Of a stretch of 37,661 nucleotides of DNA, positions 23,659 through 37,661 are shown piece after piece (the first letter of the stretch is position 1; every line of letters begins with the position of its first letter). A program made the position numbers and the translations under genes. Under the pieces are notes generated by a model. The model was not told the DNA's origin, searched no databases, and was given only the letters and a program-made list of their open reading frames with translations. The stretch is from positions 1-37,661 of the forward strand of contig CAYZWQ010000003.1 of the NCBI GenBank assembly GCA_964481355.1. Direction: 5' to 3'. The DNA is from an uncultured Chitinophagales bacterium (lineage in GTDB: Bacteria; Bacteroidota; Rhodothermia; Balneolales; CAYWCV01).

Positions 23659-25368
23659 ATGAAATCCAAAGACAGAAACGCATCGTCCAGCGAGACGCCC
23701 AAGGACGACGCACCCCAAGAGCATAAGCGCAAGCAACGCATTCCCAAGAAGGGCTGGAGTCCGCCGCCGTTCGATGCCTTCGCCGAAGCCGACAGAAGCC
23801 GACCAAGAAACAGCGACCGACCTAAGCGTTCGTACGGCGACAAGCCTGCGTTCGGCGACAAACCCAAGCGCACCTTCGGCGACAAGCCCGCGTTCGGTGA
23901 CAAACCAAAGCGCTCCTATGGCGACAAACCCGCGTTCGGTGACAGACCAAAGCGCTCCTATGGCGACAAACCCGCGTTCGGTGACAGACCCAAGCGCACC
24001 TATGGCGACAAACCCGCGTTCGGTGACAGACCCAAGCGCACCTTCAACCGCGAGGATGCTGGTGCAGACCGGCCAAAGAGAAGCTTCAACCGTGAAGAGG
24101 CAGCACCAGAGCGTCCAAAGCGCAGCTTTGGCGACAAGCCCGCGTTCGGCGACCGTCCCAAGCGCACCTTCGGCGACAAGCCCGCGTTCGGCGACAGACC
24201 CAAGCGAACCTTTGGCGATAAACCCGCGTTCGGCGACCGTCCCAAGCGAACCTTCAACCGCGATGAATCGCGCAGTGGCCCATCCGATGAACCGCGTCGC
24301 AAATTTGGCCGTGGCGGTGTTCCGACCGAAGGAGCCGACAGCCCGTTTCCGCCTCGCAAGCGCCGTTCCGATAACGATGGACCGTCATTTGGCGACCGGC
24401 CAAAACGCCCGTTCAACAAAGACGGACCTGCCTTTGGCGACAAGCCGAAACGGGCCGGTTTTGGCGCTTCAAAACCCGGAACCCGCAAGCCCTTCGATCG
24501 GTCAGAGCGAAGCACTGGCGGCGATCGTCCGGCGCGCAAATCGGCACGTGACAACTTCAAAGGCTATGGACCCAAAGGCATTCGCAGCCGCGACGACGAG
24601 CCGACCCGAGGAGGCAAAGCCGAACCGAAGGCGAAAGTCGAGGAGGTGCGCCTGAACAAGTACATCGCCCACAGCGGGGTGTGCGCACGACGGGAGGCCG
24701 ACTCGCTCATCGAGACGGGCAAAGTGAAGGTCAACGGCAAGGTAGTGACCGAACTGGGCACCAAGGTAAAAACTACCGACAAGGTGATGGTCAACGACAT
24801 GACGATCCAGTTTGAGCCTTATAAATATGTGCTCATGCACAAGCCAAAGAATACCATCACCACAACAAGTGATGACAGAGGCCGTAAGACCGTAATGGAC
24901 ATCATCGAAAATGAGATCGGCGAGCGCTTGTACCCTGTCGGACGCCTCGACCGAAACACAACAGGAGTTTTATTGCTCACCAACGACGGTGATTTGGCCA
25001 ACCGCCTTATGCATCCGTCCTACAACGTCGGAAAGGTGTACCAAGCCGAAATCAACCGCGTACTTAACGATGACGAGCTCGACCAGCTTCGCAAAGGAAT
25101 CGAACTTGAAGATGGTCCTGCTAGGGCTTATAATGTAGTTCGTGGTTTGCTCGACCCCTATAGCATTGAGTTAGCCGTTCACGAGGGCAGAAATCACCTC
25201 GTTCGCAGGATGGTGGAAGCGTTGGGTGCCGAAATTATCAAACTTAAACGCAGCGAGTTCGCAGGTCTCGACCTTGACGACTTGCGCCCAGGTCGTTGGC
25301 GGTTTCTAAAAACTAGGGAAGTGAGCATCCTACGCACGAAAGTGAAGCTTCCCGATTTAAGAAAATAA
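23659..25368 (+). CDS. rluB: RsuA/RluB-family pseudouridine synthase with a ~330-aa basic repeat-rich N-terminal extension
   Basis: C-terminal 240 aa carry an S4 domain (RLNKYIAHSGVCARREAD) plus catalytic GRLDRNTTGVLLLTNDG. The N-terminus is low-complexity with 14-aa repeats D(R/K)PKR(S/T)(F/Y)GDKPAFG. Confidence 0.85.
   Translation: MKSKDRNASSSETPKDDAPQEHKRKQRIPKKGWSPPPFDAFAEADRSRPRNSDRPKRSYGDKPAFGDKPKRTFGDKPAFGDKPKRSYGDKPAFGDRPKRSYGDKPAFGDRPKRTYGDKPAFGDRPKRTFNREDAGADRPKRSFNREEAAPERPKRSFGDKPAFGDRPKRTFGDKPAFGDRPKRTFGDKPAFGDRPKRTFNRDESRSGPSDEPRRKFGRGGVPTEGADSPFPPRKRRSDNDGPSFGDRPKRPFNKDGPAFGDKPKRAGFGASKPGTRKPFDRSERSTGGDRPARKSARDNFKGYGPKGIRSRDDEPTRGGKAEPKAKVEEVRLNKYIAHSGVCARREADSLIETGKVKVNGKVVTELGTKVKTTDKVMVNDMTIQFEPYKYVLMHKPKNTITTTSDDRGRKTVMDIIENEIGERLYPVGRLDRNTTGVLLLTNDGDLANRLMHPSYNVGKVYQAEINRVLNDDELDQLRKGIELEDGPARAYNVVRGLLDPYSIELAVHEGRNHLVRRMVEALGAEIIKLKRSEFAGLDLDDLRPGRWRFLKTREVSILRTKVKLPDLRK
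23815..24276 (+). repeat. Eleven consecutive in-frame 42-bp tandem repeats inside rluB (14-aa unit D(R/K)PKR(S/T)(F/Y)GDKPAFG)
   Basis: Read directly: units start at 23815, 23857, 23899, 23941, 23983, 24025, 24067, 24109, 24151, 24193 and 24235. Several differ by only a few nucleotides. Units 6, 7 and 11 switch to a ...FNRE/D... tail. Confidence 0.9.
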
Positions 25369-27535: not shown

Positions 27536-28270
27536 GTGACGTTCGAAGGACTCCCCGTAACCCTCATGCGCCGCCGTGGCCAACGCAAGCTGCGATTGGC
27601 CATCCGTAACGGCGTGATCACCGTTTCGGGTCCATGGTGGGTGAGCAATAAGGAGCTGACCACCTTTTTGGAGCATCAACGCGAATGGGTGCAATCTTCG
27701 CTGGCAAAAAGGGAGATGCGCACTCGCGAGCTGCTCGATAAAGCCGACGACGTCTTACCCGACTTGCTTTACCTGGGCACGGCTTACCCTGTGGTCATCA
27801 CCCACGACGCCTCGGTACGGGCAGGGCATACCCACATCGATATTGAGGGAACATCAGTTGTTATACGCTATCCCGAGTGGACACCCGACCACCTGCACGT
27901 CGAACAGAATCTAGCCGAAATTAAGCGTATCATCAGCCTTTGGCTGCTCGACAAAGCCAGAGGTCACCTTGCCAGACGCACCCATGAACTTGCCGGCGAA
28001 CACGGATTCCACTTTGAACGGCTATTCATTCGCAGCCAGACCACCAAATGGGGTACATGTTCCTCGAAAAAGAACCTGTCGCTGAATCGCAAGCTCATCC
28101 AGTGCCCCGAAATGGTGATCGACTACCTGATCATTCACGAGCTGTGCCACCTCAAAGAGATGAACCACAGCGCCCGCTATTGGGCGCATGTGGCAGAACA
28201 CTATCCGAACTACAGGGATGCCGAAGCCTGGCTCAAGCGGTACGGCAATGTGGTGTTTGGGAACTATTAG
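27536..28270 (+). CDS. YgjP-like (DUF45 / M48-related) zinc metallopeptidase
   Basis: HELCHLKEMNHS HExxH motif near the C-terminus. RKLRLAIRNGVITVSGPWWVS N-terminal pattern is typical of DUF45. GTG start. The stop overlaps the convergent secretin stop. Confidence 0.8.
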   Translation: MTFEGLPVTLMRRRGQRKLRLAIRNGVITVSGPWWVSNKELTTFLEHQREWVQSSLAKREMRTRELLDKADDVLPDLLYLGTAYPVVITHDASVRAGHTHIDIEGTSVVIRYPEWTPDHLHVEQNLAEIKRIISLWLLDKARGHLARRTHELAGEHGFHFERLFIRSQTTKWGTCSSKKNLSLNRKLIQCPEMVIDYLIIHELCHLKEMNHSARYWAHVAEHYPNYRDAEAWLKRYGNVVFGNY

Positions 28271-29544
28271 TCCTTGATGCGCTTCAGGTTCACTTCGCGG
28301 ATCACATTGCGCCCACGGTTAAGCTCATCTTCAAGCGGACTGAGCTTCATATCAAAACGCTCGCGAAGGGTAGGCACCAACGTTGCCTTGATCACAACTA
28401 CCAGCTCCTTCTCGCGATAGTCCTTCGAGTTGTAGCCGAACAGATAGCGCAGGCCAAAGAACCAGGGTGGAAGATCCTTCAGGAAGGGTATGCCACGACG
28501 GATGATGAGCTCCTCGGTTTCGTACAAGCCGGCAACGACCGTAGACTCTCCGCTGTACAGCAACACCTGGGTTGATGCCTGCTGCTTGTTGATGATGGTG
28601 CTCACCGGATCGGGCGCACCTGTCGAACGCTCGGCCTTGATGTTCAGTAGGATAAACGTCGTGTCGGAATAGGAGATCACGTTGGGCGTGACGGTCAGAA
28701 TCGTACCGGTCTTATAGAACTCGTCCGTCACGTTGCCGGCGAAGTCGCGCTGTTTGATCGAAATATCCTGACCAACCTGCACGTCTCCAGCCTGGCCGTC
28801 CATCACCTTGATACGGGGCGACGAGAGTATTTGACCTGCATTGTTGGCCTCGAGCGCACTTAAGAGGGCAGTAACCTCCCAGTCGCTGGTTCCCAAATCG
28901 GGTGTCACCCCGACAATGAAGTTCTCGAGGGTGACGCCACCGGCATTCAGATTCGTGACGGAAACGATTCCGTCGTTGATGACCGACCAGTCGATTCCAA
29001 TTTCGCGCAAAATTCGGCGGTTGCCCTCGAAAAAGATCGCGGAGATCTCCACCTCACGGGTGTCGAGGTCGGGGATGAAGTCGGCGGTCATGTTCGTCTG
29101 ACGGCGAACATCAACCGGCTCGATGCGAGCCGTTGGGGTTGTCGGGGTTGTGCGCGTGGTGTCAGCCCTGGGCGTATCGGTCGGCCGCAGTACGATCTCG
29201 ATCGACTGCGGATACTCCATTATCGCCAGATCATGTGCATTGGCGATGTACTCGAGCGCCTGACGCCAATGCATGTATGGGATGCTGAACCCGATCGGAC
29301 CCGTGCGATTCGTGCGGTCGATGAGGGGTTTCTCTGCAAAACGGCGCGAGAAGCCTCCCAAAATCTGCAACGCCTGCGGGAAGGTGGTCTCGGCGGCAAG
29401 CGTCACCATCTCGTCGGGGTTGGTGTACTCGCGAATCGGTGGGTTCACTTGGCCGTGCACCGGTGCCACGACTGCCAGCACTCCTGTCAGCGCCAGTGCA
29501 ACACAGATTCCTGAAATCGGTTTAAGCATCCTGTTCATATACAT
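28267..29544 (-). CDS. pilQ: Small secretin (PilQ/GspD family), 425 aa
   Basis: Signal peptide ...LAVVAPVHGQ. Secretin core begins EVEISAIFFEGNRRILREIGIDW, with LSALEANNAGQILSSPRIKVMDGQ. C-terminal GIPFLKDLP...LFGY....REKELVVVIKATLV. AAGGA SD upstream (the ATG at 29538 is also possible). Confidence 0.85.
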   Translation of the reverse strand: MYMNRMLKPISGICVALALTGVLAVVAPVHGQVNPPIREYTNPDEMVTLAAETTFPQALQILGGFSRRFAEKPLIDRTNRTGPIGFSIPYMHWRQALEYIANAHDLAIMEYPQSIEIVLRPTDTPRADTTRTTPTTPTARIEPVDVRRQTNMTADFIPDLDTREVEISAIFFEGNRRILREIGIDWSVINDGIVSVTNLNAGGVTLENFIVGVTPDLGTSDWEVTALLSALEANNAGQILSSPRIKVMDGQAGDVQVGQDISIKQRDFAGNVTDEFYKTGTILTVTPNVISYSDTTFILLNIKAERSTGAPDPVSTIINKQQASTQVLLYSGESTVVAGLYETEELIIRRGIPFLKDLPPWFFGLRYLFGYNSKDYREKELVVVIKATLVPTLRERFDMKLSPLEDELNRGRNVIREVNLKRIKD

Positions 29545-29551
29545 GTTCCTT

Positions 29552-30478
29552 TTAGTTTTCGCTGATCTGGAGTGTCACAAGCTCAGTTTGTCCACCCCGG
29601 GTGATACGAAACGTGGCCGTCTTGCGCGACAGGCTGATCTCGTCGAGCGTGCCCAAATAGACGCGCCCTCCAATTGGGATGTAAACGATTTGCCTCTGTT
29701 GATCCTCGAGGTACACCCCGCTACGAACCAAACCCACAAGGGTACTGCGGTTAATGTCTGGCAAACCTTCCGAATTCGGCGGCGGACCCGTGTTTGCACG
29801 AGATGTCGTTTCGTTATCCGTCAATATCGGTTCTGGCGACGAGCCTCTTGACGGTTCAAATCGAACCAGCGGATTAAACGGATTGTGGATGGCCCTCGGC
29901 GTGTCAAAATTGATCAACAGCGCCGGATTTTCAATGCTGGTAGCACGCGTGAAATAGAAATTTACGGTCGCCTCATACAATATGAACTCCGTACCCGAGT
30001 TGTCGGTCTGTGCCGATATGCGAAGATCCGTGATCTTTGTCATCGGCTTGCTCTGCTCAAGGATGCTCATGAAATTATAGAAGGCATCGTAGGTGCCACC
30101 GCCCGACAATTTGACGCGGATGATGCCGTATTGATCTTGCAGCACCGAATCGATGAGCGTGAAGTTCAGCGAGGTCTGCGCGGCCCCCGTGTTGATGGTG
30201 CGCAGATAATCGAACATCACGGCCACATTGTTGCTCGAGAAAAACTGTTTGGTGTGGTTCTCGTACTGGAAACGCACCGTGCGAAGCTGTTCCTCAACCG
30301 ACACGTACTGACCTGTTTTCTCCGTATAGGTCTCCAAATCGGCCCTTTTTTGTTCGATTTCGGCCTTTTGCTGAATAATGGGGTCCTCATAGAAATAGCG
30401 TATGAAGGCCCAACCTCCGGCGAAGAGCACGATGATGGTGGCCAATAGAATCAATGTGTTGCGAACGGCGTACGACAT
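29552..30478 (-). CDS. PilO-like/PilP-like fusion (type IV filament alignment-complex protein)
   Basis: N-terminal TM helix (LILLATIIVLFAGGWAF), coiled-coil and a PilO-type domain. A linker carrying NPFNP follows, then a PilP-like beta domain (LVGLVRSG...VYIPIGGRVYLGTLDEISL..ATFRI). ATG at 30478 is preceded by GGGAGAG, 2 nt after the upstream stop (the ORF-track GTG is at 30484). Confidence 0.65.
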   Translation of the reverse strand: MSYAVRNTLILLATIIVLFAGGWAFIRYFYEDPIIQQKAEIEQKRADLETYTEKTGQYVSVEEQLRTVRFQYENHTKQFFSSNNVAVMFDYLRTINTGAAQTSLNFTLIDSVLQDQYGIIRVKLSGGGTYDAFYNFMSILEQSKPMTKITDLRISAQTDNSGTEFILYEATVNFYFTRATSIENPALLINFDTPRAIHNPFNPLVRFEPSRGSSPEPILTDNETTSRANTGPPPNSEGLPDINRSTLVGLVRSGVYLEDQQRQIVYIPIGGRVYLGTLDEISLSRKTATFRITRGGQTELVTLQISEN

Positions 30479-30480
30479 AG

Positions 30481-32202
30481 TCACTCTCCCGGAATTTGGA
30501 TTGCGGTTGAGTCGACAGGCACAGCCAATGAATCAGCTGCTGCCGGGTCTTGATACACCGGTCGGGGCGGGTTGAAAATCGATTCGTCAAGAACGATCTT
30601 CGTGACCAGCAATGTGAAATCATACACCGTAGGACGACCGTCACGTTCCTGAACCGAGAGGATGACGGCATTCTCGAAGCTTTCGCTGATCATCGGGATG
30701 CGGTCGCGCGACAGACTTGAACCCTGGATGAGAATACCCCCGCCCGGTTGAGATGCCAGCGATCGTATCCAGATGCTGCGGATCTCCTGCGTGGACTCAT
30801 TGATGCCGGCCATGGTGGTCGACCACTTCCGGGTTTCGGCACTGAGCTCGTCGAGAAGCCCCAATCGGGCGCTGTAGTCGTTGAAGTCGGCCATGAACTG
30901 GTCGACAGCATCCGCGATCGGCTTGGTTTCAGAAATCTGTGCATCCAGAAAACCGATGGTCTGCTGATTGCTTTCGAACTCGCGGCTGATCTCCTGAAAC
31001 CTGTAATTGAAGATCAAAGGAAAAAGTGCAATGATGCCGAGCAGCACGTAACCATGCCAGCCCAGCTTGAACACCTGTTGGCGCAGCAGTACCCGCTCCG
31101 GAACAAAACTCAGGCCCGGGAAGTCGCTCTCGCTGCCCGCTCCTGCCGCCCACGCGACACCGATGGCCCTGAGGTGATCCTGAAGCTCGCCAATTTCGAT
31201 GGTTTCGTCGATTTCGAAAATGTCAGGGTTGAACTGAAATGCCTCGACGTCGATGTCGATGAACTGCTCGCGCAGATAGTTGCCCATCTGCTCGTCGGCC
31301 GTGTCAGAGGTGATAATCACCTGGTCGAGTGTTGGTATCTTGCCGCGGTCGATCTCGAAGAGAATCTTGCTGAATACCGTTCGTACAAACTTCGGATTGT
31401 TACGGCCTTCGTTGATGACCGGCAAGATGGTGTGCACCCTCTTGCCCTGCAGGAACAAGACCGCCGTGCGCGTATCCTCGGCATGGATGATACAGGTGAA
31501 CTGCTGATCCTGAAGCTTGTAATTGGCCCGCGTCAACCCCACCAAGACAGCCTCGTCGGGGATGATCTCACGAACGTTCACCTTGCCCGTGTAGATCGGC
31601 AGGGCGGAGTCGAGGATCTCGAGCGACTCGATGTTGTTGCCAATTGAGGCAACGAAGAGCGAGCCGTCATCACGGACGTAGTAACGCAACTGATCGTTGG
31701 TCACAACCTGACCGTAGTAGGCGTTCACACGCTCTTTAAGCTCTTTTAGGGTCTTCTTTTTGCCGAGCTTCTTGTGGTTGACGTCGCTCACCACTTGGAA
31801 ATAGGTGTCGCCAATTGGGATGTTCAGGGCGACATTCACCGACTTCGGATGCTCACCGCTCAGAATTTGCGCCATTTGGCTGGCGTTCGACTCCACGTCG
31901 ATGCCCTCGAGGGCAATGTCTTTGCCCATGTCGAAATCTGATTCCAACGATGGGATTGCAGGTTTCGCCGGACCAGGCCCCGTATCGTCGTCAAGGTCGA
32001 GCAAGAGCGACGACGGCTCGATCATTTCGTCGGTTACCGTCGGTTGCGCGCTTGCGACACCTTTTCGGACGGGCGTGACGAGGTCAACCGTGTTCAAGTG
32101 CATGACCCTCATCTTGCCTTTGTTGAAGGTCACCGTTGCGACACGCAGCTTGTCGTCCTCAAGCGATATCCCAGTAGTAAGTTTGGATTTTCGGTCAAAC
32201 AT
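30481..32202 (-). CDS. PilM-like/PilN-like fusion (GspL-like topology)
   Basis: About 390 aa of cytoplasmic actin-like PilM-type region (TTGISLEDDKLRVATV...). One TM helix (GWHGYVLLGIIALFPLIF), then a ~160-aa periplasmic PilN-like coiled-coil/ferredoxin-like region. Confidence 0.65.
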   Translation of the reverse strand: MFDRKSKLTTGISLEDDKLRVATVTFNKGKMRVMHLNTVDLVTPVRKGVASAQPTVTDEMIEPSSLLLDLDDDTGPGPAKPAIPSLESDFDMGKDIALEGIDVESNASQMAQILSGEHPKSVNVALNIPIGDTYFQVVSDVNHKKLGKKKTLKELKERVNAYYGQVVTNDQLRYYVRDDGSLFVASIGNNIESLEILDSALPIYTGKVNVREIIPDEAVLVGLTRANYKLQDQQFTCIIHAEDTRTAVLFLQGKRVHTILPVINEGRNNPKFVRTVFSKILFEIDRGKIPTLDQVIITSDTADEQMGNYLREQFIDIDVEAFQFNPDIFEIDETIEIGELQDHLRAIGVAWAAGAGSESDFPGLSFVPERVLLRQQVFKLGWHGYVLLGIIALFPLIFNYRFQEISREFESNQQTIGFLDAQISETKPIADAVDQFMADFNDYSARLGLLDELSAETRKWSTTMAGINESTQEIRSIWIRSLASQPGGGILIQGSSLSRDRIPMISESFENAVILSVQERDGRPTVYDFTLLVTKIVLDESIFNPPRPVYQDPAAADSLAVPVDSTAIQIPGE

Positions 32203-32213
32203 CTGTTCGCCTT

Positions 32214-33440
32214 TTATGATACCAAATCCTTGAAACGTTTCTTATTGTTGGCGTAATTATACGCCTCCTCCATCGAAATTACACCTTCTTTGTACAATCG
32301 TTTAAGATCCTGCTCAAGGGTGTGCATTCCGAAGCCGCTGCCCTCCATGATCATCTGGTAGATTTCACCCGTGTTGTTATTGCGGATGGCCGCCTTGACC
32401 GACGTGGTGGTGAGCAGCACCTCCTTCGCAAGCGTGCGCTTTCCGTCGATGGTTGGAACCAGCTTCTGCGAAATCACGCAGGTGAGGGTGTCGGCCAGGC
32501 GGTTGCGCACACGCTCCTGCTCGTGGGTAGGCACCTCGCCAATGATACGGTCGATGCTCTCCACGGCCGAGGCGGTGTGCAGGGTCGAAAAGGTCTTGTG
32601 GCCCGAGTCGGTGATCTCCAAGGCAGTGGTGATGGTCTCCGGATCTCGAAGCTCGCCGATCATGATGATGTCGGGATCCTGACGCAGCGACTCGATGGCT
32701 CCCGACTTGAACGACATGGTGTCGCGGCCCACTTCGCGGTGACGCACGATGCACTTGATGGGCTTGTGCACCATTTCGATCGGGGAGGCGATGATCACGA
32801 TGTGCGCCTCGACCGAGCGGTTGTTGGCGTCGATGATCGAGTCGAGGGTGGCCGACTTACCCGAACCGGTGATTCCCGTCACCAAGGTCATGCCGTACTT
32901 CAGGTTCTTGAGGCTGAGCGCGGAGGCGATGACCGGGTGGAAATTCAGCCCCTTGAACGGACGGATCGAGCTGTTGATGCGGCGCATGTTGAGCGCGATG
33001 GCGTCGAGGTCGAAATACATGTTGGCACGGTAACGCTTGCTCTCACCGTCGTCGGTGTCGATCACATACGAAAAGTCCAAGTTCTTCCGCTCCATGAAGA
33101 AGTTGAACTGGGCAGGCATCAGCACCGACAGCAGCAGCACGTTCATGTCTTTGGGGTTGATCTCAGGACCCTCCAGCCATGGCGCCTTGGTGCCGTAGAT
33201 GCGGTACCAGATGCGGTTTGCCGTTCCGTTCGAGCCCATGTCGATGTCGGAGGCGTCGATGTCGTCCATGCGTAGCAACCACGTGTCGAGCAAATTGCGC
33301 AGGTAGATCAAATGGTCGTCGGGCAACTGACGGATCTTCTCGTACATGGCACGAAAAAACTCCACGCCCGTAAGGTTGCGTGGCAGCGCGTTGCGCACCG
33401 GATCAATGATGGTTCTCAAGTCCTGCATAGAGTCTGACAA
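32214..33440 (-). CDS. pilT: PilT-family hexameric ATPase (retraction-type), divergent, with N-terminal extension
   Basis: Walker A GITGSGKSAT, Walker B DPDIIMIGELRD, His box GHKTFSTLHTASA, AIRN motif remnant. Start is TTG at 33440 or ATG at 33428. Confidence 0.85.
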   Translation of the reverse strand: MSDSMQDLRTIIDPVRNALPRNLTGVEFFRAMYEKIRQLPDDHLIYLRNLLDTWLLRMDDIDASDIDMGSNGTANRIWYRIYGTKAPWLEGPEINPKDMNVLLLSVLMPAQFNFFMERKNLDFSYVIDTDDGESKRYRANMYFDLDAIALNMRRINSSIRPFKGLNFHPVIASALSLKNLKYGMTLVTGITGSGKSATLDSIIDANNRSVEAHIVIIASPIEMVHKPIKCIVRHREVGRDTMSFKSGAIESLRQDPDIIMIGELRDPETITTALEITDSGHKTFSTLHTASAVESIDRIIGEVPTHEQERVRNRLADTLTCVISQKLVPTIDGKRTLAKEVLLTTTSVKAAIRNNNTGEIYQMIMEGSGFGMHTLEQDLKRLYKEGVISMEEAYNYANNKKRFKDLVS

Positions 33441-33468: not shown

Positions 33469-34590
33469 TTAGTCTAATATATAGGTAATGTTTTGACGAA
33501 CCAATCCTGCCAATGCATCGATGTTCCGGAGGTTGGCTATTGTGGCACTGCTGTACTGGATCATAACGTTACCGTTAACGGTGATGTCGACCTCTTCGTC
33601 CACGATAAACTGTGGGAGTGGGGCTGTTGGATCTGGGGATGGTGTGTAAATGATGCCCCCAAAAATTTTTGGAATACCAGATGCGATATTAACTGTGCCC
33701 ATACCGATGATTAAACCGTGGAACTCAGGGTTTCCGGCAAGCTCCAATTCGCCACCGGGTTCAACGATAATTACACCCGCATGCGGACCCGAACTTAAGT
33801 TAAAATGCCCTCCAGCCTTGATGACCATGATCATTGGATCTGCAGGTGTACCTGGACTAAATTGTTTGTCACACACCGATGTACCGGCATTCCGGGGTTG
33901 TGTGCAGTTAAAGTCGGCATTGGCCGATGCAAAATTGATGAACTCAAGCAACTCGGCGTCGTTCATGTTCGGATCGTGCACCACGCTGGGTTCACTCGTG
34001 CCCGCACCGATGATATTATCGAGCTGTTGATTACCCAATACATCCAGCACACTCTCTTCCCCCTCAGCCGTACTTGTGGTGATACCGGGTAAGTGTTGTG
34101 CATACGTTGGCTCCGAGCCATCCGGATTTTTGTCAAATCCTGAAATCAAAAATGAGTTTCCCTTGAAATCGATGTCAATATTGGATCCATAGATGCCCAC
34201 GGCACCGTTTGCAGGTGGGATGCCGTCGGTCTGGTAAACCCTTGCGATCACACGTGCCGTCACACCGTCGCTGGTGCCGGTGCTGCGGATCTCCACATAA
34301 TCTTCAGGTATGTTGGCATCGTGCGTTTCGTCGAGCACGACCACCGTAGCCGAATTGTTGCCGAAGTTGTACGTCATCGGGCTGTTGGTCGCGACCCTCC
34401 ACTCCCTGTCGGCACCCAACGAAAGCATGGCACGCTCCAAGCCGCTGTTGGCCGCATTGCGAGCCTGCGACAAGTGCACATAGCTCACCGAAAGCTGGTC
34501 GATCTGTGTCTGACGGTTCATCACGCCGATCTGGGTCAGGCTGAAGACCAAGAACATGGATGTGACGATAATTAACATGCTGCGTCCCAT
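33469..34590 (-). CDS. PilX-like minor-pilin-like protein (PilX_N-type N-terminus plus large C-terminal domain)
   Basis: MGRSMLIIVTSMFLVFSLTQIGVMNRQ...ARNAANSGLERAMLSL fits the PilX N-domain pattern. C-terminal GVIIVEPGGELELAGNPEFHGLIIGMGTVNI..G.PKIFGGIIY motif is seen in PilX/TadG-like proteins. GAGG SD 7 nt upstream. Confidence 0.6.
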   Translation of the reverse strand: MGRSMLIIVTSMFLVFSLTQIGVMNRQTQIDQLSVSYVHLSQARNAANSGLERAMLSLGADREWRVATNSPMTYNFGNNSATVVVLDETHDANIPEDYVEIRSTGTSDGVTARVIARVYQTDGIPPANGAVGIYGSNIDIDFKGNSFLISGFDKNPDGSEPTYAQHLPGITTSTAEGEESVLDVLGNQQLDNIIGAGTSEPSVVHDPNMNDAELLEFINFASANADFNCTQPRNAGTSVCDKQFSPGTPADPMIMVIKAGGHFNLSSGPHAGVIIVEPGGELELAGNPEFHGLIIGMGTVNIASGIPKIFGGIIYTPSPDPTAPLPQFIVDEEVDITVNGNVMIQYSSATIANLRNIDALAGLVRQNITYILD

Positions 34591-34599
34591 AATGCTACC

Positions 34600-35145
34600 T
34601 CAGTTTTGTAAACCCCTGGGGGTAATATCTGTTTCCCAATACGACCGTGCCCATTCGTTCATGTACGACACGTTGCTCTCCACGATCATCCGCACACGAA
34701 TGCGGGTCACTTCCGACGGCGTGAGCGTCGAGTCGCCGTCGGCATCGAAATACCGATACCTAAAACTGACAATTCCACTTCCAAAATCGGTGGTGTCGCT
34801 GCCCGCAATTCGGTATAGCTTACGGTCGCGGGGGTTTGGCGATTCTGTGTCCTGTACATTCTGGTCCCAAACCCAACGCACGGTCTGAATGGTGCCGTTG
34901 ACGTCGGCCCTGCTGAACATCAGATTGTGTTCGGCGAGCTGCACGATCTGGCTGCCAGGAGCCACACCAGCCCCCACCTGCCTTAAGTCGGCAGTGACGT
35001 AGGCCGAAACCGCCTCCACTTTGGCCTTGGTGGCAAACTGCATCGTTTTGATACCGGCACTCTGTGTCACCCGCGTGTTCAGGCCGATCATCGCAAGCAT
35101 CAAAAGCCCGCCAATAATCGCACTGATAACTAAACTCATGTTCAT
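34600..35145 (-). CDS. PilW/GspJ-like minor-pilin-like protein lacking a canonical prepilin leader
   Basis: MNMSLVISAIIGGLLMLAMIGL... then VTADLRQVGAG, which parallels the PilW motif ...RDLRMAG. GGAGG SD 6 nt upstream. The start overlaps the upstream stop (ATGA). Confidence 0.6.
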   Translation of the reverse strand: MNMSLVISAIIGGLLMLAMIGLNTRVTQSAGIKTMQFATKAKVEAVSAYVTADLRQVGAGVAPGSQIVQLAEHNLMFSRADVNGTIQTVRWVWDQNVQDTESPNPRDRKLYRIAGSDTTDFGSGIVSFRYRYFDADGDSTLTPSEVTRIRVRMIVESNVSYMNEWARSYWETDITPRGLQN

Positions 35146-35654
35146 TCGAGACCTCCTGTGTGGTGCTCAAGAACCGACTTTTGGGCCCTGACGAAGGCAT
35201 TGGTCAAAACCCCGATACGGCGCTGTTGCAGATCGAGTATGTTTATAATAAAGATAGTAAAAAGCCGCTCCGGTTTGGAGCGGAAATAGTCCATCACGAT
35301 GGACCGTCGGAATTTGATCACCGTCGTCGGCTCTAGAGCAATCACACTGGCCATACGAGATCCTTTGCCGAACAGGAAGACCTCCTCGAGGAAGCTGCCC
35401 GGACCAAAAGTACCCAGGTTAATTCCATCGCGGCTCTGTGACACTTTGCCGTCGAGAATAAGAAACGCCGTTTCGCAGGTCGGGTCGATTTCGTCGATCA
35501 CCCGTTGGCTGCGTTCGAATTTCTCCACCTCTCCGGCATGCAGGAGCTCATTCAAATCTTCGTGGGGAAAATTCCTGAAGATGGGGGGCGACTGAGCCAG
35601 CACCTTGTTCAGCTGCATCATCACGTGGTCGTCGTGTAAGCTTAGGTTCATCAT
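35142..35654 (-). CDS. Stand-alone cyclic-nucleotide-binding (CAP effector domain) protein, no DNA-binding domain
   Basis: 170 aa. Pattern FRNFPHEDLNELLHAGEVEKFERSQRVIDE....AFLILDGKV...GTFGPGSFLEEVFLFGKGSRMASVIALEPTTVIKF matches a cNMP-binding beta-roll with the phosphate-binding-cassette Glu/Arg, followed by a C-helix. No HTH follows. Confidence 0.75.
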   Translation of the reverse strand: MMNLSLHDDHVMMQLNKVLAQSPPIFRNFPHEDLNELLHAGEVEKFERSQRVIDEIDPTCETAFLILDGKVSQSRDGINLGTFGPGSFLEEVFLFGKGSRMASVIALEPTTVIKFRRSIVMDYFRSKPERLFTIFIINILDLQQRRIGVLTNAFVRAQKSVLEHHTGGLE

Positions 35655-35663
35655 GGCTTCGTG

Positions 35664-36179
35664 TCAATAGTATGTTTTTACATAGCTCAGGGTTACCGGA
35701 CCCCTCATGTCGGGATGGTTCACGGTTACCTGAAGTCGTTTATGCGAAGTTTTCGTGTTCGCATTGGTGGTCGGCGATCCGGCCTGTACATAGAATACGG
35801 TCGCGGTGAGGATGTAGGTTCCATAACCTGTGGCCCTGGTGATGTTCAAGCCATTGTAGTCGTCAAAATCGTTGAATTCGGGATAGACTTCGCCGGCATC
35901 GGGTCCCAAGCTGTCGGGCGCAGTGAATCCGGATGGAATAAGTGCCGTAGGAATCCGTGGATCCCTTAGCCGGTCGATCCTGTAGTCGACACGCTTGTCG
36001 AATACACGCACCCTCGCCTCCTCGACGATGCTCTGGGCCATGCTGATGCCGTTGTATTCCACTTCCGACTCGACGGTCATCTCGGTGGTGTTAACCATGG
36101 AACGGTTGATGGTGTTGGCGAACAGCCCGAACACCAAAACCGCGGCAATCACATATAAAACGTCCGATATGTCATTCAT
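35664..36179 (-). CDS. PilV/GspI-like minor-pilin-like protein lacking a canonical prepilin leader
   Basis: MNDISDVLYVIAAVLVFGLF N-terminal helix. Has the FNDFDDYNG motif and the ...ATVFYV... pattern typical of PilV-type minor pilins. GGAG SD 6 nt upstream. Confidence 0.55.
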   Translation of the reverse strand: MNDISDVLYVIAAVLVFGLFANTINRSMVNTTEMTVESEVEYNGISMAQSIVEEARVRVFDKRVDYRIDRLRDPRIPTALIPSGFTAPDSLGPDAGEVYPEFNDFDDYNGLNITRATGYGTYILTATVFYVQAGSPTTNANTKTSHKRLQVTVNHPDMRGPVTLSYVKTYY

Positions 36180-36218: not shown

Positions 36219-37661
36219 TCAGGCATCGATGGTGATCGCAATGATCTCCTCGATGGTGGTCAGACCCTCCTTGATACGCTCGCGTCCGCTGGCACGCATG
36301 GTGAGCATGCCGTTGCTTATGGCGATGTCTCGGATTTGGTCTTCATCGACATTTTCGCCGGCGTTAAAAATCGCATGTTTGATCTTCTTGTCGAAAAATA
36401 AGGCTTCCATGATCGCAATACGGCCCTTGTAGCCGTTGCGGCATTTGTTGCAGCCCACCGCCTTGTAAAATTTGGTTGAGGCAATCTCCTCGTCGGTGAA
36501 CCCGATCGATCGTGGCACGGCAGGTTCCATGTCGGTGATCTCTTCCTTGCACACATTGCATAATTTGCGCACCAATCGCTGGGCCATCACCAGATTGATG
36601 GCACTTGCAATAAGGAAGGGCTCGACACCCATCTTGAACAGACGGGAGATGGCGCTCGGCGCGTCGTTAGTGTGCAGGGTCGAAAACGTGAGGTGACCCG
36701 TGTTGGCCAACTTGATGGCAATTTCGGCGGTCTTCAAATCCCGGATCTCGCCCACGAGCACGATGTCGGGGTCATGCCGCAAAATGCCTCGCATGGCTTC
36801 GTCGAAGCTCATCTTCTCGGAGATCTTGAGCTGGCGCGCACCCTTGATAAGATATTCGACCGGCTCTTCGACCGTGAGTACGTTCACCTGGGGGTTGATC
36901 ACAGTGTACAGTGCGGCGACAAGGGTCGTCGACTTACCCGAACCGGTCGGACCGGTGATGATGATCATCCCCTGTGGCAGGTGGATGGCCTTCACGATTT
37001 GGGCCTGGGCCTGGTGCTGCAGACCCAGCAAGTTCAGGTCGGTGATGACCTTGCGATCGTCGAGGATCCGGATAACGATGGACTCGAGCTTGCGTTCGTA
37101 CTCCTGGCCCACAATCGGCATGATGGAGACGCGGAAACGCAGCTGGTGTTCGTCGATGCGCCGCTGGATGAAGCCGTCCTGAGACATGTCGCGGACGAAT
37201 CGGTCCACGTTGCGGGTCTTGTCTTTCACGACCGCCGACAGGGCCTCCGACTTCACGCCGGTCTGCGTGTGCCACAGCCCCAGCTTGCCGTCCTGGCGGA
37301 AGTAGATGTCGGTGGTGTTGCCCACGCCGGGTATGATGTGGATGTCGCTCACACCCTGACGCACGGCCTCGACCAGCATGCCCTCGACGAGGGAGTTGAG
37401 CATGCTCTGGTTGATTTCGGCGTCGATCTCGGCCTCGTCGATGCCTTCCTCTTCCTGCGATATAGTGCCAGTGTCGAACTCGATGTCCTCGAGCAAGTCG
37501 AGGAACTCGTTCTTCTTCTCGTACACCACACCGGTGATGGCATCGAACACGTCGAGACGCATGTAAGCCACCTCGTACGACTTGAGGTTCAGCGAGTTCG
37601 CGATTACCAAAATCTCTGGATCGGTCGGGTCGGCGGCACCGATGACGAGCGATCCCCTTTC
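36219..37661 (-). CDS. pilB: PilB/GspE-family assembly ATPase, 5'-truncated by the window edge
   Basis: Walker A GPTGSGKSTT, Asp box TVEEPVEY, Walker B DPDIVLVGEIRD, His box GHLTFSTLHTNDA, and tetracysteine CNVC...CNKC. The reading frame stays open from 37610 to 37661 (ERGSLVIGAADPTDPEI, T2SSE_N-like), so the real start lies beyond the window. Confidence 0.92.
   Translation of the reverse strand, partial: ERGSLVIGAADPTDPEILVIANSLNLKSYEVAYMRLDVFDAITGVVYEKKNEFLDLLEDIEFDTGTISQEEEGIDEAEIDAEINQSMLNSLVEGMLVEAVRQGVSDIHIIPGVGNTTDIYFRQDGKLGLWHTQTGVKSEALSAVVKDKTRNVDRFVRDMSQDGFIQRRIDEHQLRFRVSIMPIVGQEYERKLESIVIRILDDRKVITDLNLLGLQHQAQAQIVKAIHLPQGMIIITGPTGSGKSTTLVAALYTVINPQVNVLTVEEPVEYLIKGARQLKISEKMSFDEAMRGILRHDPDIVLVGEIRDLKTAEIAIKLANTGHLTFSTLHTNDAPSAISRLFKMGVEPFLIASAINLVMAQRLVRKLCNVCKEEITDMEPAVPRSIGFTDEEIASTKFYKAVGCNKCRNGYKGRIAIMEALFFDKKIKHAIFNAGENVDEDQIRDIAISNGMLTMRASGRERIKEGLTTIEEIIAITIDA

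What the first reader, a model, noticed from the sequence alone, without database searches (positions are those of the whole stretch)
35142..35654. Stand-alone cNMP-binding protein translationally coupled inside the minor-pilin block
This 170-aa protein consists only of a CAP-type effector domain (beta-roll with FLEEV...GSRMASVIA phosphate-binding-cassette-like Glu/Arg) plus a C-helix. It has no HTH or other output domain. It sits between the PilV-like and PilW-like genes. Its stop overlaps the PilW-like start (ATGA), and that start has a perfect GGAGG SD inside the cNMP gene. Known links between cyclic nucleotides and type IV pili act through transcription factors (Vfr, SYCRP1) or c-di-GMP receptors (PilZ, FimX, MshEN). 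A cytoplasmic cNMP sensor co-translated with pseudopilins suggests direct post-translational control of the machine, for example of the PilB/PilT switch or the cytoplasmic face of the PilM-N fusion.
Basis: partly seen in the sequence, partly recalled or inferred. Interest (0 to 1): 0.75.

Follow-up and report, generated by a model that had tools for sequence, protein, structure and literature searches.

The report
Cyclic-nucleotide-domain protein built into pilus operon
A small cytoplasmic protein consisting only of a cyclic-nucleotide-binding fold is a fixed, strongly conserved gene between the extension and retraction motor genes of a pilus-like machine in Balneolales bacteria and relatives, which suggests an undescribed way of controlling such machines, although this particular copy has an altered ligand pocket.

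Summary
Window 35142-35654 (minus strand) encodes a 170-aa protein whose only domain is PF00027. A confident AlphaFold model shows a beta-roll plus a long C-helix and no DNA-binding domain. Its stop overlaps the next gene's start (ATGA), with AGGAGG 6 nt upstream.

It is not a chance insertion. Every one of the 80 species-level genome loci that extends far enough places a homologue downstream of pilB and upstream of pilT. dN/dS is about 0.05. A sister family occupies the same slot in at least one other phylum (Latescibacterota).

- The constant neighbours are PilB and PilT. The three small membrane-protein genes are present in only 15 of 80 genome loci.
- Those genes match no pilin family, so "PilV/PilW-like" is unverified.
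- Most Balneolales members have a canonical phosphate-binding cassette (G-E...R-x-A), but this lineage has Gly to Glu, the position where G324D blocks cAMP binding in PKA RI-alpha. About half of the sister-family representatives have degenerate cassettes. The most conserved part is the C-helix.

Best reading: a machine-associated cytoplasmic regulator acting through protein contacts, cNMP-responsive in most members and uncertain here. No ligand or partner has been shown. I found no published description.

The parts
35142..35654 (-). Gene for a 170-aa stand-alone cyclic-nucleotide-binding-fold protein (N-terminal helices, beta-roll, long C-helix).
   Evidence: The ORF is. PF00027 scores E=3.8e-11, above the cut-off. 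The AF2 model has pLDDT 88.9. Foldseek top hits are PKG CNB-B, T. thermophilus CAP, GlxR and Mtb CRP. dN/dS is about 0.05.
35343..35393 (-). Phosphate-binding cassette, residues 88-104 (F-L-E90-E91-V-F-L-F-G-K97-G-S-R100-M-A102-S-V). Glu91, Arg100 and Ala102 are kept. The cassette Gly is replaced by Glu90.
   Evidence: HMMER alignments to PKG cassettes are.
35157..35285 (-). Hinge and long C-helix, residues 124-166. This is the most conserved part of the family (F124, R125, E129, L131, F132, N138, I139, Q143 and Q144 invariant, with 7-residue spacing). It is a probable dimerisation or partner-binding helix.
   Evidence: The motif ERLFK[IL]F..N is shared with the sister family.
35152..35157 (-). 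AGGAGG Shine-Dalgarno-like sequence for the downstream gene, inside the last codons (Gly-Gly) of the CNB gene. The ATGA stop/start overlap is at 35142-35145.
   Evidence: AGGAGG and ATGA are both kept in L008 and L009; L001 and L002 keep ATGA with a weaker GGGAGAG.
35664..36179 (-). 171-aa protein with one N-terminal hydrophobic helix ('p171'). No family assignment.
   Evidence: Homologues occupy the same position in L001, L003, L010-L017, L088, L089, L091 and L095.
34600..35145 (-). 181-aa protein with one N-terminal hydrophobic helix ('p181'), translationally coupled to the CNB gene. No family assignment.
   Evidence: It follows the CNB gene directly (overlap or a gap of at most 7 nt) in L001, L003, L088, L089, L094 and L095.
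33469..34590 (-). 373-aa protein with an N-terminal MGRxxLLIV hydrophobic helix ('p373'). No family assignment in the window copy.
   Evidence: The homologue in L045 hits DUF4900.
36219..37661 (-). PilB-type assembly ATPase. Its 5' end runs off the window.
   Evidence: PF00437 scores E=6.6e-99. The best NCBIfam hit is TIGR02538 PilB. The frame stays open to the window end. Orthologues are 590-596 aa.
32214..33440 (-). PilT/PilU-family retraction-type ATPase, 408 aa.
   Evidence: PF00437. TIGR01420 scores 320.4 bits against a cut-off of 319.1.
30481..32202 (-). 573-aa inner-membrane protein. The C-terminal part is PilN. The ~380-aa cytoplasmic N-terminal part has no recognisable family (PilM-like by position only).
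   Evidence: The profile hit to M. xanthus PilN (3JC8) scores E=3.1e-10 for residues 385-507. There are no Pfam or NCBIfam hits.
29552..30484 (-). PilO/GspM-like protein, 310 aa.
   Evidence: PF04350 scores 21.6 bits, just under the cut-off of 22. NF040576 GspM scores E=6e-8.
28267..29544 (-). Secretin, 425 aa. It is the last gene of the operon.
   Evidence: PF00263 scores E=9e-30. The best NCBIfam hit is PilQ.

Best explanation
The gene encodes a cytoplasmic protein, probably dimeric, made of one cyclic-nucleotide-binding (CNB) fold and a long C-terminal helix. It is a dedicated, lineage-specific accessory subunit or regulator of a type IVa-pilus-like machine found in Balneolales and related FCB-group bacteria.

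It most likely acts after translation, by binding a cytoplasmic part of the machine. The PilB and PilT motor ATPases are the leading candidates, followed by the cytoplasmic domain of the PilN-fusion protein or PilC. In this way it would bias assembly against retraction.

In most family members the phosphate-binding cassette is canonical, so the contact is probably gated by a cyclic mononucleotide. In the window's own lineage the cassette glycine is Glu, so the response to ligand may be weakened, changed or lost while the machine-binding role remains.

Shown: the fold, the absence of an output domain, purifying selection, invariant synteny with pilB and pilT, translational coupling, and the cassette pattern.

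Inferred: ligand binding, dimerisation, the partner, and the direction of the effect.
For: Fold and architecture:
- PF00027 is the only domain.
- The AF2 model (pLDDT 88.9) ends in a single long helix.
- Foldseek top hits are genuine cNMP receptors (PKG, CAP, GlxR, Mtb CRP), E about 1e-9 to 1e-10, TM 0.6-0.7.
- The family profile matches PKG CNB domains at E=5.6e-25 with G-E...R-x-A aligned.

Family and taxonomy:
- 311 members at E<=1e-3. The best 120 are about 150-174 aa (most 167) with PF00027 as the only precomputed Pfam domain, and every organism name given is Balneolales or an unresolved Bacteroidota label.

Synteny:
- 138 species genomes hold a relative.
- In the 80 loci kept, PilB is upstream in 77 and PilT downstream in 76. 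All exceptions are contig ends.
- An independent sample anchored on the PilN-fusion protein gives 7 of 7 Balneolales-type operons with the gene.
- The two more distant operons (23% identity) lack it and carry a receiver protein after the secretin, followed in L006 by a hybrid kinase.
- Sister-family genes (30-40% identical) sit in the same slot in a Latescibacterota MAG and three other contigs.

Selection:
- dN/dS is 0.05-0.11.
- Cassette residues E91 (invariant), R100 and A102 (about 0.9) and the C-helix stripe F124, R125, E129, L131, F132, N138, I139, Q143, Q144 (invariant) are the most conserved positions.
- 110 of 121 Balneolales members have the full G-E...R-x-A cassette.

Operon structure:
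- The operon is tightly packed, with gaps of -4 to 39 nt from pilB to the secretin.
- The CNB gene overlaps the next gene.

Fusions and precedent:
- Relatives of this CNB subfamily are fused to receiver domains (P0210, P0307; L094 10851-11711), which links it to signal transduction.
- Small signalling proteins that bind PilB or PilT directly are known: PilZ-FimX (PMC8389850), PlzR (PMC11461919) and DrdR (PMC13507683).
Against: - No binding or interaction data exist, and none could be computed here. No multimer prediction was available.
- The window's lineage has Glu (Asp in one member) in place of the cassette Gly. The same Gly to Asp change in PKA RI-alpha site B prevents cAMP binding (PMC3075275).
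- One close homologue has His at the Arg position (P0009).
- In the wider sister family, 13 of 26 representatives lack the cassette Arg or Glu, so the role in the operon does not depend on a canonical pocket.
- Gene order alone cannot say which machine component is contacted. Outside Balneolaceae the tightest coupling is to the 181-aa membrane protein, not to an ATPase.
- No cyclase gene was seen in any neighbourhood.
Confidence: 0.55

Rival explanations
1. It is a ligand-independent structural or assembly factor. The CNB fold is used only as a scaffold whose conserved C-helix docks onto the machine, and cyclic nucleotides play no part, at least in the window's lineage.
For: The cassette Gly is changed to Glu or Asp throughout the window clade. 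The equivalent G324D prevents cAMP binding in PKA RI-alpha. 13 of 26 sister-family representatives lack the cassette Arg or Glu yet keep the operon position and the ERLFK..F..N helix motif. The invariant positions cluster in the C-helix.
Against: E91 is invariant, and R100 and A102 are about 90% conserved across Balneolales, including the window clade. This is unexpected for an unused pocket. 110 of 121 members keep a textbook cassette. The profile resembles genuine cNMP receptors most closely.
Confidence: 0.28
2. It is a cytoplasmic partner or chaperone specifically for the co-translated 181-aa membrane protein. It would hold or target that protein before insertion and would not regulate the motors.
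For: ATGA overlap and an SD inside the CNB gene. Outside Balneolaceae the CNB gene is immediately followed by a p181 homologue in every locus examined: L088, L089, L091, L092, L094 and L095.
Against: 65 of 80 genome loci keep the CNB gene between pilB and pilT although no p181, p171 or p373 homologue was detected there. The protein p181 has only about 4 cytoplasmic residues before its hydrophobic helix.
Confidence: 0.08
3. It is an ordinary Crp/Fnr transcription factor, as some database records name it, with a DNA-binding domain that was missed or is supplied in trans.
For: Some sources name homologues 'Crp/Fnr family transcriptional regulator' or 'CRP-like cAMP-binding protein'. Foldseek hits include CRP-family effector domains.
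Against: The protein ends after the C-helix. There is no HTH Pfam hit even at E<=1. All listed members are about 150-174 aa. The next gene starts inside the stop codon. The C-helix is followed by only about 4 residues.
Confidence: 0.03
4. It is a chance insertion or a decaying passenger gene with no link to the pilus operon.
For: None were found.
Against: Synteny is invariant in all informative loci of 80 species genomes and in a second phylum. dN/dS is about 0.05.
Confidence: 0.01

Closest known systems
CNB domains of cGMP- and cAMP-dependent protein kinases (PKG CNB-A/B, PKA R subunits; e.g. PDB 4KU8, 3SHR, 5EZR)
   Same: They are the best sequence and profile matches (E=2.7e-10 for the single sequence, 5.6e-25 for the profile) and the top Foldseek hit. 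They share the beta-roll and the cassette layout G-E-x8-R-x-A seen in the family consensus.
   Different: This protein is bacterial and single-domain, with no kinase partner and a much longer C-helix. The window copy has Glu instead of the cassette Gly. The residue after Arg is Met, not the Thr or Ser (cGMP) or Ala (cAMP) typical of the kinases.
Effector domain plus dimerisation helix of CRP/FNR regulators (T. thermophilus CAP 4EV0, C. glutamicum GlxR, M. tuberculosis CRP; functionally Vfr and SYCRP1, which control type IV pili through transcription)
   Same: It has the same fold, including a long C-helix after the beta-roll (TM 0.64-0.70). In known systems cAMP is linked to pilus biology.
   Different: There is no winged-helix DNA-binding domain. 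The gene is embedded in the machine operon itself. Any action must go through protein contacts, not promoter binding.
c-di-GMP receptors that bind the pilus motor: PilZ-FimX-PilB (PMC8389850), the MshEN domain of MshE/PilB, PlzR (PMC11461919); also the receiver protein DrdR acting on PilB/PilT (PMC13507683)
   Same: They are small cytoplasmic signalling proteins or domains that control extension and retraction by direct contact with the ATPases. This is the working model proposed here.
   Different: The fold is different (CNB, not PilZ, MshEN or receiver) and the predicted ligand class is different (cyclic mononucleotide, not c-di-GMP). No interaction has been shown here.
Other stand-alone bacterial CNB proteins (e.g. 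the Brucella 'cyclic nucleotide-binding-like protein' 5D1I; P. aeruginosa CbpA, from my own knowledge)
   Same: They have a CNB-only architecture with no enzymatic or DNA-binding output.
   Different: None is known to be a fixed member of a pilus operon. Sequence similarity is only at the generic domain level (E=6e-4).
The atypical 'T2SS' of Bacteroidetes (Cytophaga), which clusters with T4aP in phylogenies and has very divergent pilins (Denise et al. 2019, PMC6668835)
   Same: It is an FCB-group type IV filament machine whose pilin-like proteins escape standard pilin models, as happens here.
   Different: That paper does not mention a cNMP component (no occurrence of 'cNMP'). Whether the Balneolales operon is orthologous to it was not tested. 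The operon here has a PilT-family ATPase.

Membership tests
Cyclic nucleotide-binding domain (Pfam PF00027 / CAP_ED) | Profile match above the curated threshold | tested here: met
   43.2 bits against a cut-off of 27.5, E=3.8e-11.
Cyclic nucleotide-binding domain (Pfam PF00027 / CAP_ED) | Eight-stranded beta-roll flanked by N-terminal helices and B/C helices | tested here: met
   The AF2 model has pLDDT 88.9 with the expected order of strands and helices. 627 PDB matches have E<=1e-3, and the top 50 listed are all CNB domains.
Cyclic nucleotide-binding domain (Pfam PF00027 / CAP_ED) | Intact phosphate-binding cassette: Gly-Glu ... Arg-x-Ala | tested here: not met
   The window protein has Glu90-Glu91...Arg100-Met-Ala102, so the Gly is replaced. 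The feature is met in 110 of 121 family members (FLGETFLFSKNNRMAK). Gly to Asp at this position prevents cAMP binding in PKA RI-alpha (PMC3075275).
Cyclic nucleotide-binding domain (Pfam PF00027 / CAP_ED) | Measured binding of cAMP or cGMP | not testable with these tools
   This needs ITC, DRaCALA or a co-crystal.
Crp/Fnr transcription factors | C-terminal winged helix-turn-helix DNA-binding domain | tested here: not met
   There is no HTH hit at E<=1. The protein ends 4 residues after the C-helix. The family is uniformly about 167 aa.
Crp/Fnr transcription factors | N-terminal CNB-type effector domain followed by a long dimerisation helix | tested here: met
   Dimerisation itself was not tested. 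The 7-residue spacing of invariant residues and the invariant Asn138 are consistent with it.
Second-messenger receptors of type IV pilus motors (PilZ, FimX, MshEN type) | PilZ, MshEN or degenerate GGDEF-EAL c-di-GMP-binding domain | tested here: not met
   Only PF00027 is found in the protein. A weak MshEN hit lies in the PilB of some relatives, not in this protein.
Second-messenger receptors of type IV pilus motors (PilZ, FimX, MshEN type) | Physical binding to PilB or PilT and an effect on extension or retraction | not testable with these tools
   Only gene adjacency is shown: it lies between pilB and pilT in all informative loci.
Type IVa pilus machine (context of the gene) | PilB-type and PilT-type ATPases, platform protein, PilN/PilO alignment proteins and a secretin in one locus | tested here: met
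   PilB: PF00437, best hit TIGR02538. PilT: TIGR01420 above the cut-off. Secretin: PF00263. PilO: PF04350, borderline. PilN: 3JC8 at E=3e-10. PilC: T2SSF lies upstream of PilB in relatives, outside this window.
Type IVa pilus machine (context of the gene) | Pilins with a class III signal peptide (G|F/M-T-L-x-E; N_methyl motif) | tested here: not met
   No N_methyl or pilin hit was found for p171, p181, p373 or the candidate major pilins (MGQQQLLLVILV...).
   Pfam at E<=1 on 17 p181 homologues gave nothing relevant. The PDB profile search gave nothing. NCBIfam gave nothing.
   The N-terminal sequences are and the operon positions. This is a resemblance only.

The most novel reading that the evidence does not exclude
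This family is a previously unrecognised class of pilus-motor regulator. A dimeric CNB protein would bind PilB and/or PilT directly and switch the machine between extension and retraction in response to cAMP or cGMP. It would be the cyclic-mononucleotide counterpart of the PilZ/FimX/MshEN c-di-GMP receptors, ancestral to a type IV filament lineage of the FCB group (Balneolota, Latescibacterota and relatives). Lineages such as the window's would have rewired or lost the ligand input.
Probability: 0.35. Interest if true: 0.8.

Novelty: new variant of a known kind. Interest (0 to 1): 0.6.

Why it matters
Known links between cyclic mononucleotides and type IV pili run through transcription factors (Vfr, SYCRP1, CRP). 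Direct control of the motors is known only for c-di-GMP receptors and a few receiver or adaptor proteins.

A CNB-only protein fixed between pilB and pilT in well over a hundred species, and present in a second phylum, would be a new input route into the machine if it works as proposed. It also comes with a natural comparison: canonical cassettes against cassettes with Gly to Glu or otherwise degenerate. That comparison can separate ligand sensing from machine binding.

Several carriers are cultured (Gracilimonas, Fodinibius, Aliifodinibius), so the idea can be tested. The finding also flags a poorly described FCB-group type IV filament system whose pilin-like proteins escape current models.

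Tried and rejected
- A first AlphaFold run with only 11 close homologues gave a poor model (pLDDT 64.9). It was replaced by the 121-sequence run.
- I looked for a missed DNA-binding domain using Pfam at E<=1, NCBIfam, the model's C-terminus and the downstream frame. None was found.
- I tried to verify the 'PilV/PilW-like' labels. Pfam and NCBIfam on the window copies and on homologues, a Pfam scan of 17 p181 homologues, and a PDB profile search all returned nothing relevant.
- I tried to verify the 'PilM' half of the fusion protein. Only the PilN half is detectable.
- The look-up of the window's own protein in the contig index failed.
A 6-sequence alignment then worked but gave only 3 loci.
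- A terminator-like hairpin inside the gene (35265-35283) is not conserved beyond close relatives, so I dismissed it as a by-product of codon choice.
- Literature searches for a cNMP-binding protein in pilus operons, and for pili in Balneolales, found nothing relevant.
- No cyclase gene appeared in any examined neighbourhood. A genome-wide search for cyclases was not possible with the scans that remained.
Full report
OBSERVATION

The ORF lies on the minus strand at 35142..35654 and encodes 170 aa. Its only Pfam match is PF00027, cNMP_binding (E=3.8e-11, 43.2 bits against a cut-off of 27.5, residues 44-125). NCBIfam has no model for it.

Searched against PDB sequences, it matches the CNB domains of PKG, PKA, CRP-family proteins, MlotiK1 and HCN (best E=2.7e-10). 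An AlphaFold2 run with 11 close homologues was poor (pLDDT 64.9). With 121 family members the model is confident (pLDDT 88.9, pTM 0.83). It shows N-terminal helices, a beta-roll, a short cassette helix and one long C-terminal helix (129-166), after which the protein ends. Foldseek against the PDB gives 627 hits at E<=1e-3. PKG CNB-B, T. thermophilus CAP, GlxR and M. tuberculosis CRP come first, with TM 0.6-0.7.

There is no HTH. The stop codon overlaps the start of the next gene (GA-ATGA at 35142-35145), and AGGAGG lies 6 nt upstream at 35152-35157. The operon is tightly packed. From pilB to the secretin the intergenic distances are 39, 9, -4, 9, 28, 11, -4 and 7 nt. dN/dS against three orthologues is 0.05, 0.055 and 0.11.

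CONTEXT IN THE WINDOW

All genes below are on the minus strand.

| Coordinates | Product | Evidence |
|---|---|---|
| 36219 to window end | PilB-type ATPase, cut by the window end | PF00437, best NCBIfam TIGR02538 |
| 35664-36179 | p171 | no family hit |
| 35142-35654 | CNB protein | PF00027 |
| 34600-35145 | p181 | no family hit |
| 33469-34590 | p373 | no family hit |
| 32214-33440 | PilT/PilU-family ATPase | TIGR01420, 320.4 against 319.1 |
| 30481-32202 | 573-aa membrane protein | residues 385-507 match M. xanthus PilN, 3JC8, E=3.1e-10; the N-terminal ~380 aa match nothing |
| 29552-30484 | PilO/GspM-like protein | |
| 28267-29544 | secretin | PF00263 |

The rest of the window is housekeeping: Lon, PriA, RecN, ScpB, peptidases and a PAS histidine kinase.

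p171, p181 and p373 each begin with a single hydrophobic helix. None has the G|FTLxE prepilin signature, and none hits a Pfam, NCBIfam or PDB family, even when 17 p181 homologues are scanned one by one. Calling them PilV-like or PilW-like is a resemblance, not a result.

RELATIVES AND SYNTENY

A word-indexed search with the single sequence found only 11 close homologues (62-100% identical, all 170-174 aa apart from one 96-aa fragment).

The PilN-fusion protein placed the operon in Balneolales: Gracilimonas, Rhodohalobacter, Cyclonatronaceae and Balneolales MAGs (taxonomy). I followed seven of those operons, with PilN-fusion identity from 72% down to 28%. All seven have a PF00027-only gene of 163-209 aa between pilB and pilT (L001, L003, L004, L005, L007, L088, L089). 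Two more distant operons (23% identity; L006, L090) have pilB directly followed by pilT. They carry a receiver protein after the secretin, followed in L006 by a hybrid histidine kinase.

A profile of the operon-borne CNB proteins then recovered 311 members. The best 120 are about 150-174 aa (most 167) with PF00027 as the only precomputed Pfam domain. Where an organism is named they are Balneolales (Balneola, Gracilimonas, Fodinibius, Aliifodinibius) or carry an unresolved Bacteroidota label. They are annotated 'cyclic nucleotide-binding domain-containing protein' or, wrongly, 'Crp/Fnr family transcriptional regulator'.

In the species-representative genome collection, 138 genomes encode a relative. 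Among the 80 loci returned:
- PilB is upstream in 77 and PilT downstream in 76. Every exception is a contig end.
- 65 of 80 have PilB-CNB-PilT with nothing between.
- 15 of 80 have the window's arrangement, PilB-p171-CNB-p181-p373-PilT. One variant has the CNB gene first.

The invariant neighbours are therefore the two motor ATPases, not the small membrane proteins.

BEYOND BALNEOLALES

An exhaustive HMMER search of 1.84 billion representatives found only 22 hits at E<=1e-30. It also found a tail of single-domain 148-181-aa proteins, down to E about 1e-17, that share the helix motif F-[FK]-x-x-[RK]-[PE]-E-R-L-F-K-[IL]-F-x-x-N.

One of them (P0220) is from a Candidatus Latescibacterota MAG. Its contig reads PilB / p171 homologue / CNB / p181 homologue / 408-aa protein with a p373-like N-terminus (below the tblastn threshold) / PilT (L091). 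Three other contexts show the same slot:
- L092 has two tandem CNB genes.
- L094 has an additional CNB-receiver fusion after pilT.
- L095 has the full pilC-to-secretin operon.

Outside Balneolaceae the CNB gene is always immediately followed by the p181 homologue, with an overlap or a gap of at most 7 nt. The p171-CNB-p181-p373 block is therefore probably the older arrangement. Most Balneolaceae have lost or moved the three membrane-protein genes from this locus and kept the CNB gene.

THE LIGAND POCKET

The Balneolales consensus cassette is F-L-G-E-T-F-L-F-S-K-N-N-R-M-A-K-V. It aligns residue for residue with the PKG and PKA cassettes (F-G-E-x-A-L-...-R-T-A). 110 of 121 members carry G-E...R-x-A. 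After down-weighting close relatives, E91, F93, L94, F95 and K97 are invariant, and R100 and A102 are about 0.9 conserved. That is the pattern of a pocket in use.

The window's clade (identity of at least 62%) differs. The glycine is Glu, or Asp in one member, giving L-E-E-V. One member has His-Arg in place of Arg-Met.

[quoted passage not shown] The mutagenic oligonucleotide in that paper places it at the G of G-E-I-A-L-L, which is my own mapping.

In the sister family, 13 of 26 representatives lack the cassette Arg or Glu. Ligand binding is therefore likely for most Balneolales members, uncertain for the window protein, and clearly dispensable in some lineages.

Nothing in the sequence identifies the nucleotide. 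The residue after Arg is Met, neither the Thr/Ser typical of cGMP sites nor the Ala of PKA.

THE C-HELIX

The most conserved stretch of the whole family is the hinge and C-helix. F124, R125, E129, L131, F132, N138, I139, Q143 and Q144 are invariant, and the pairs recur every seven residues (124/125, 131/132, 138/139). N138 is also invariant in the sister family.

In CRP-type proteins this helix forms the dimer coiled coil. The heptad stripe and the invariant Asn fit a parallel dimer, a partner-binding face, or both. This is inference.

MECHANISM

The protein is cytoplasmic and has no output domain. It is under strong constraint and sits within a single operon with the machine. The most economical model is a regulatory or accessory subunit that docks on a cytoplasmic component, with the docking gated by a cyclic mononucleotide where the cassette is intact.

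PilB and PilT are the prime candidates because they are the only invariant neighbours. Functional precedents are PilZ-FimX-PilB, PlzR and the receiver protein DrdR.

Two observations place this CNB subfamily in signal transduction rather than pure structure. Some relatives are fused to receiver domains. The nearest operons that lack it carry receiver genes (and in L006 a hybrid kinase) instead.

I put 0.55 on this model. I put 0.28 on a ligand-independent structural role, which for the window protein in particular is a serious alternative. I put 0.08 on a p181-specific chaperone role, 0.03 on a transcription factor and 0.01 on a passenger gene.

COMPARISON WITH KNOWN SYSTEMS, AND NOVELTY

By profile and fold it is a member of the CNB domain superfamily. 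It is not a Crp/Fnr regulator, because the defining DNA-binding domain is absent. It is not a PilZ, MshEN or FimX-type receptor. It may work like those receptors, but with a different fold and a different predicted messenger.

Full-text searches found no report of a cNMP-binding protein in a pilus operon and nothing on pili in Balneolales. The large survey of type IV filament systems does not mention one. It does note that Bacteroidetes systems are atypical, with very divergent pilins (PMC6668835).

I rate it a new variant of a known kind: a second-messenger-type accessory of a type IV filament machine, built on a CNB fold.

LIMITS

There are no biochemical data, no multimer modelling, no whole-genome view of cyclases, and no proof that the machine makes a pilus rather than secreting proteins.

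Noticed in passing
L001 5576-6052; L003 1882-2337 and 2392-2772; L006 344-724: Small genes upstream of pilC in related operons start MGQQQLLLVILVT... followed by about 110-140 residues. They look like the major filament subunits but have no Glu5, no G|F cleavage motif and no pilin Pfam hit. This may be a divergent pilin class of this FCB-group machine.
   Followed up: partly
L092 876-1463 and 1478-1981: The CNB gene is tandemly duplicated between the p171-like and p181-like genes in one metagenomic operon.
   Followed up: no
L094 10851-11711; proteins P0210 and P0307: Proteins fuse this CNB subfamily (with the ERLFK..F..N helix motif) to a response-regulator receiver domain, in either order. 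One is encoded just after pilT in the same operon as a stand-alone CNB gene.
   Followed up: no
L006 9114-13740; L090 7050-7969: The nearest operons that lack the CNB gene carry a single-domain receiver protein directly after the secretin. In L006 a 1182-aa hybrid histidine kinase and a second receiver protein follow it; the L090 contig ends in the next gene. This may be an alternative regulatory input.
   Followed up: no
window 35265-35283 (minus strand): A terminator-like hairpin (CCGCTCC-AAACC-GGAGCGG followed by CTTTTT) lies inside the CNB gene, on the codons of the conserved FRSKPERLF motif. It is kept only in close relatives and not in more distant orthologues, so it is probably a by-product of codon choice.
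   Followed up: yes
window 35343-35393 (residue K97): A lysine in the middle of the phosphate-binding cassette loop (F-S-K-N-N-R) is invariant across the Balneolales family, including the window clade. This position is not conserved in PKA, PKG or CRP. I have no explanation for it.
   Followed up: no
window 35146-35157: The otherwise variable C-terminal tail keeps Gly-Gly in most of the window clade. These codons form the AGGAGG ribosome-binding site of the downstream gene, so the conservation may act at the RNA level.
   Followed up: partly
window 23659-25368 (+): An RluB-type pseudouridine synthase (S4 and PseudoU_synth_2 domains at residues 330-521) is preceded by an N-terminal region of about 320 aa. 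That region is made of roughly 15 basic repeats of the type FGDKPKRSYGDKPA.
   Followed up: no
window 30481-32202 (minus strand): The 573-aa 'PilM-N fusion' is recognisable only in its PilN part (residues 385-507). The ~380-aa cytoplasmic N-terminal region has no detectable similarity to PilM or any other family.
   Followed up: partly
L008-L011 (record titles): The closest genomes (94% and 89% identical CNB protein in L008 and L009) are labelled 'uncultured Chitinophagales bacterium'. Every other named relative of the operon is Balneolales or an unresolved Bacteroidetes/Bacteroidota MAG, so those MAG labels are probably wrong.
   Followed up: no
L045 5667-6899; L095 7273-8601: The p373 homologue in L045 hits DUF4900 (E=4.9e-8). 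An extra 442-aa gene in the L095 block is recorded with PF23981 (DUF7305). These two domains of unknown function may belong to this filament system.
   Followed up: no
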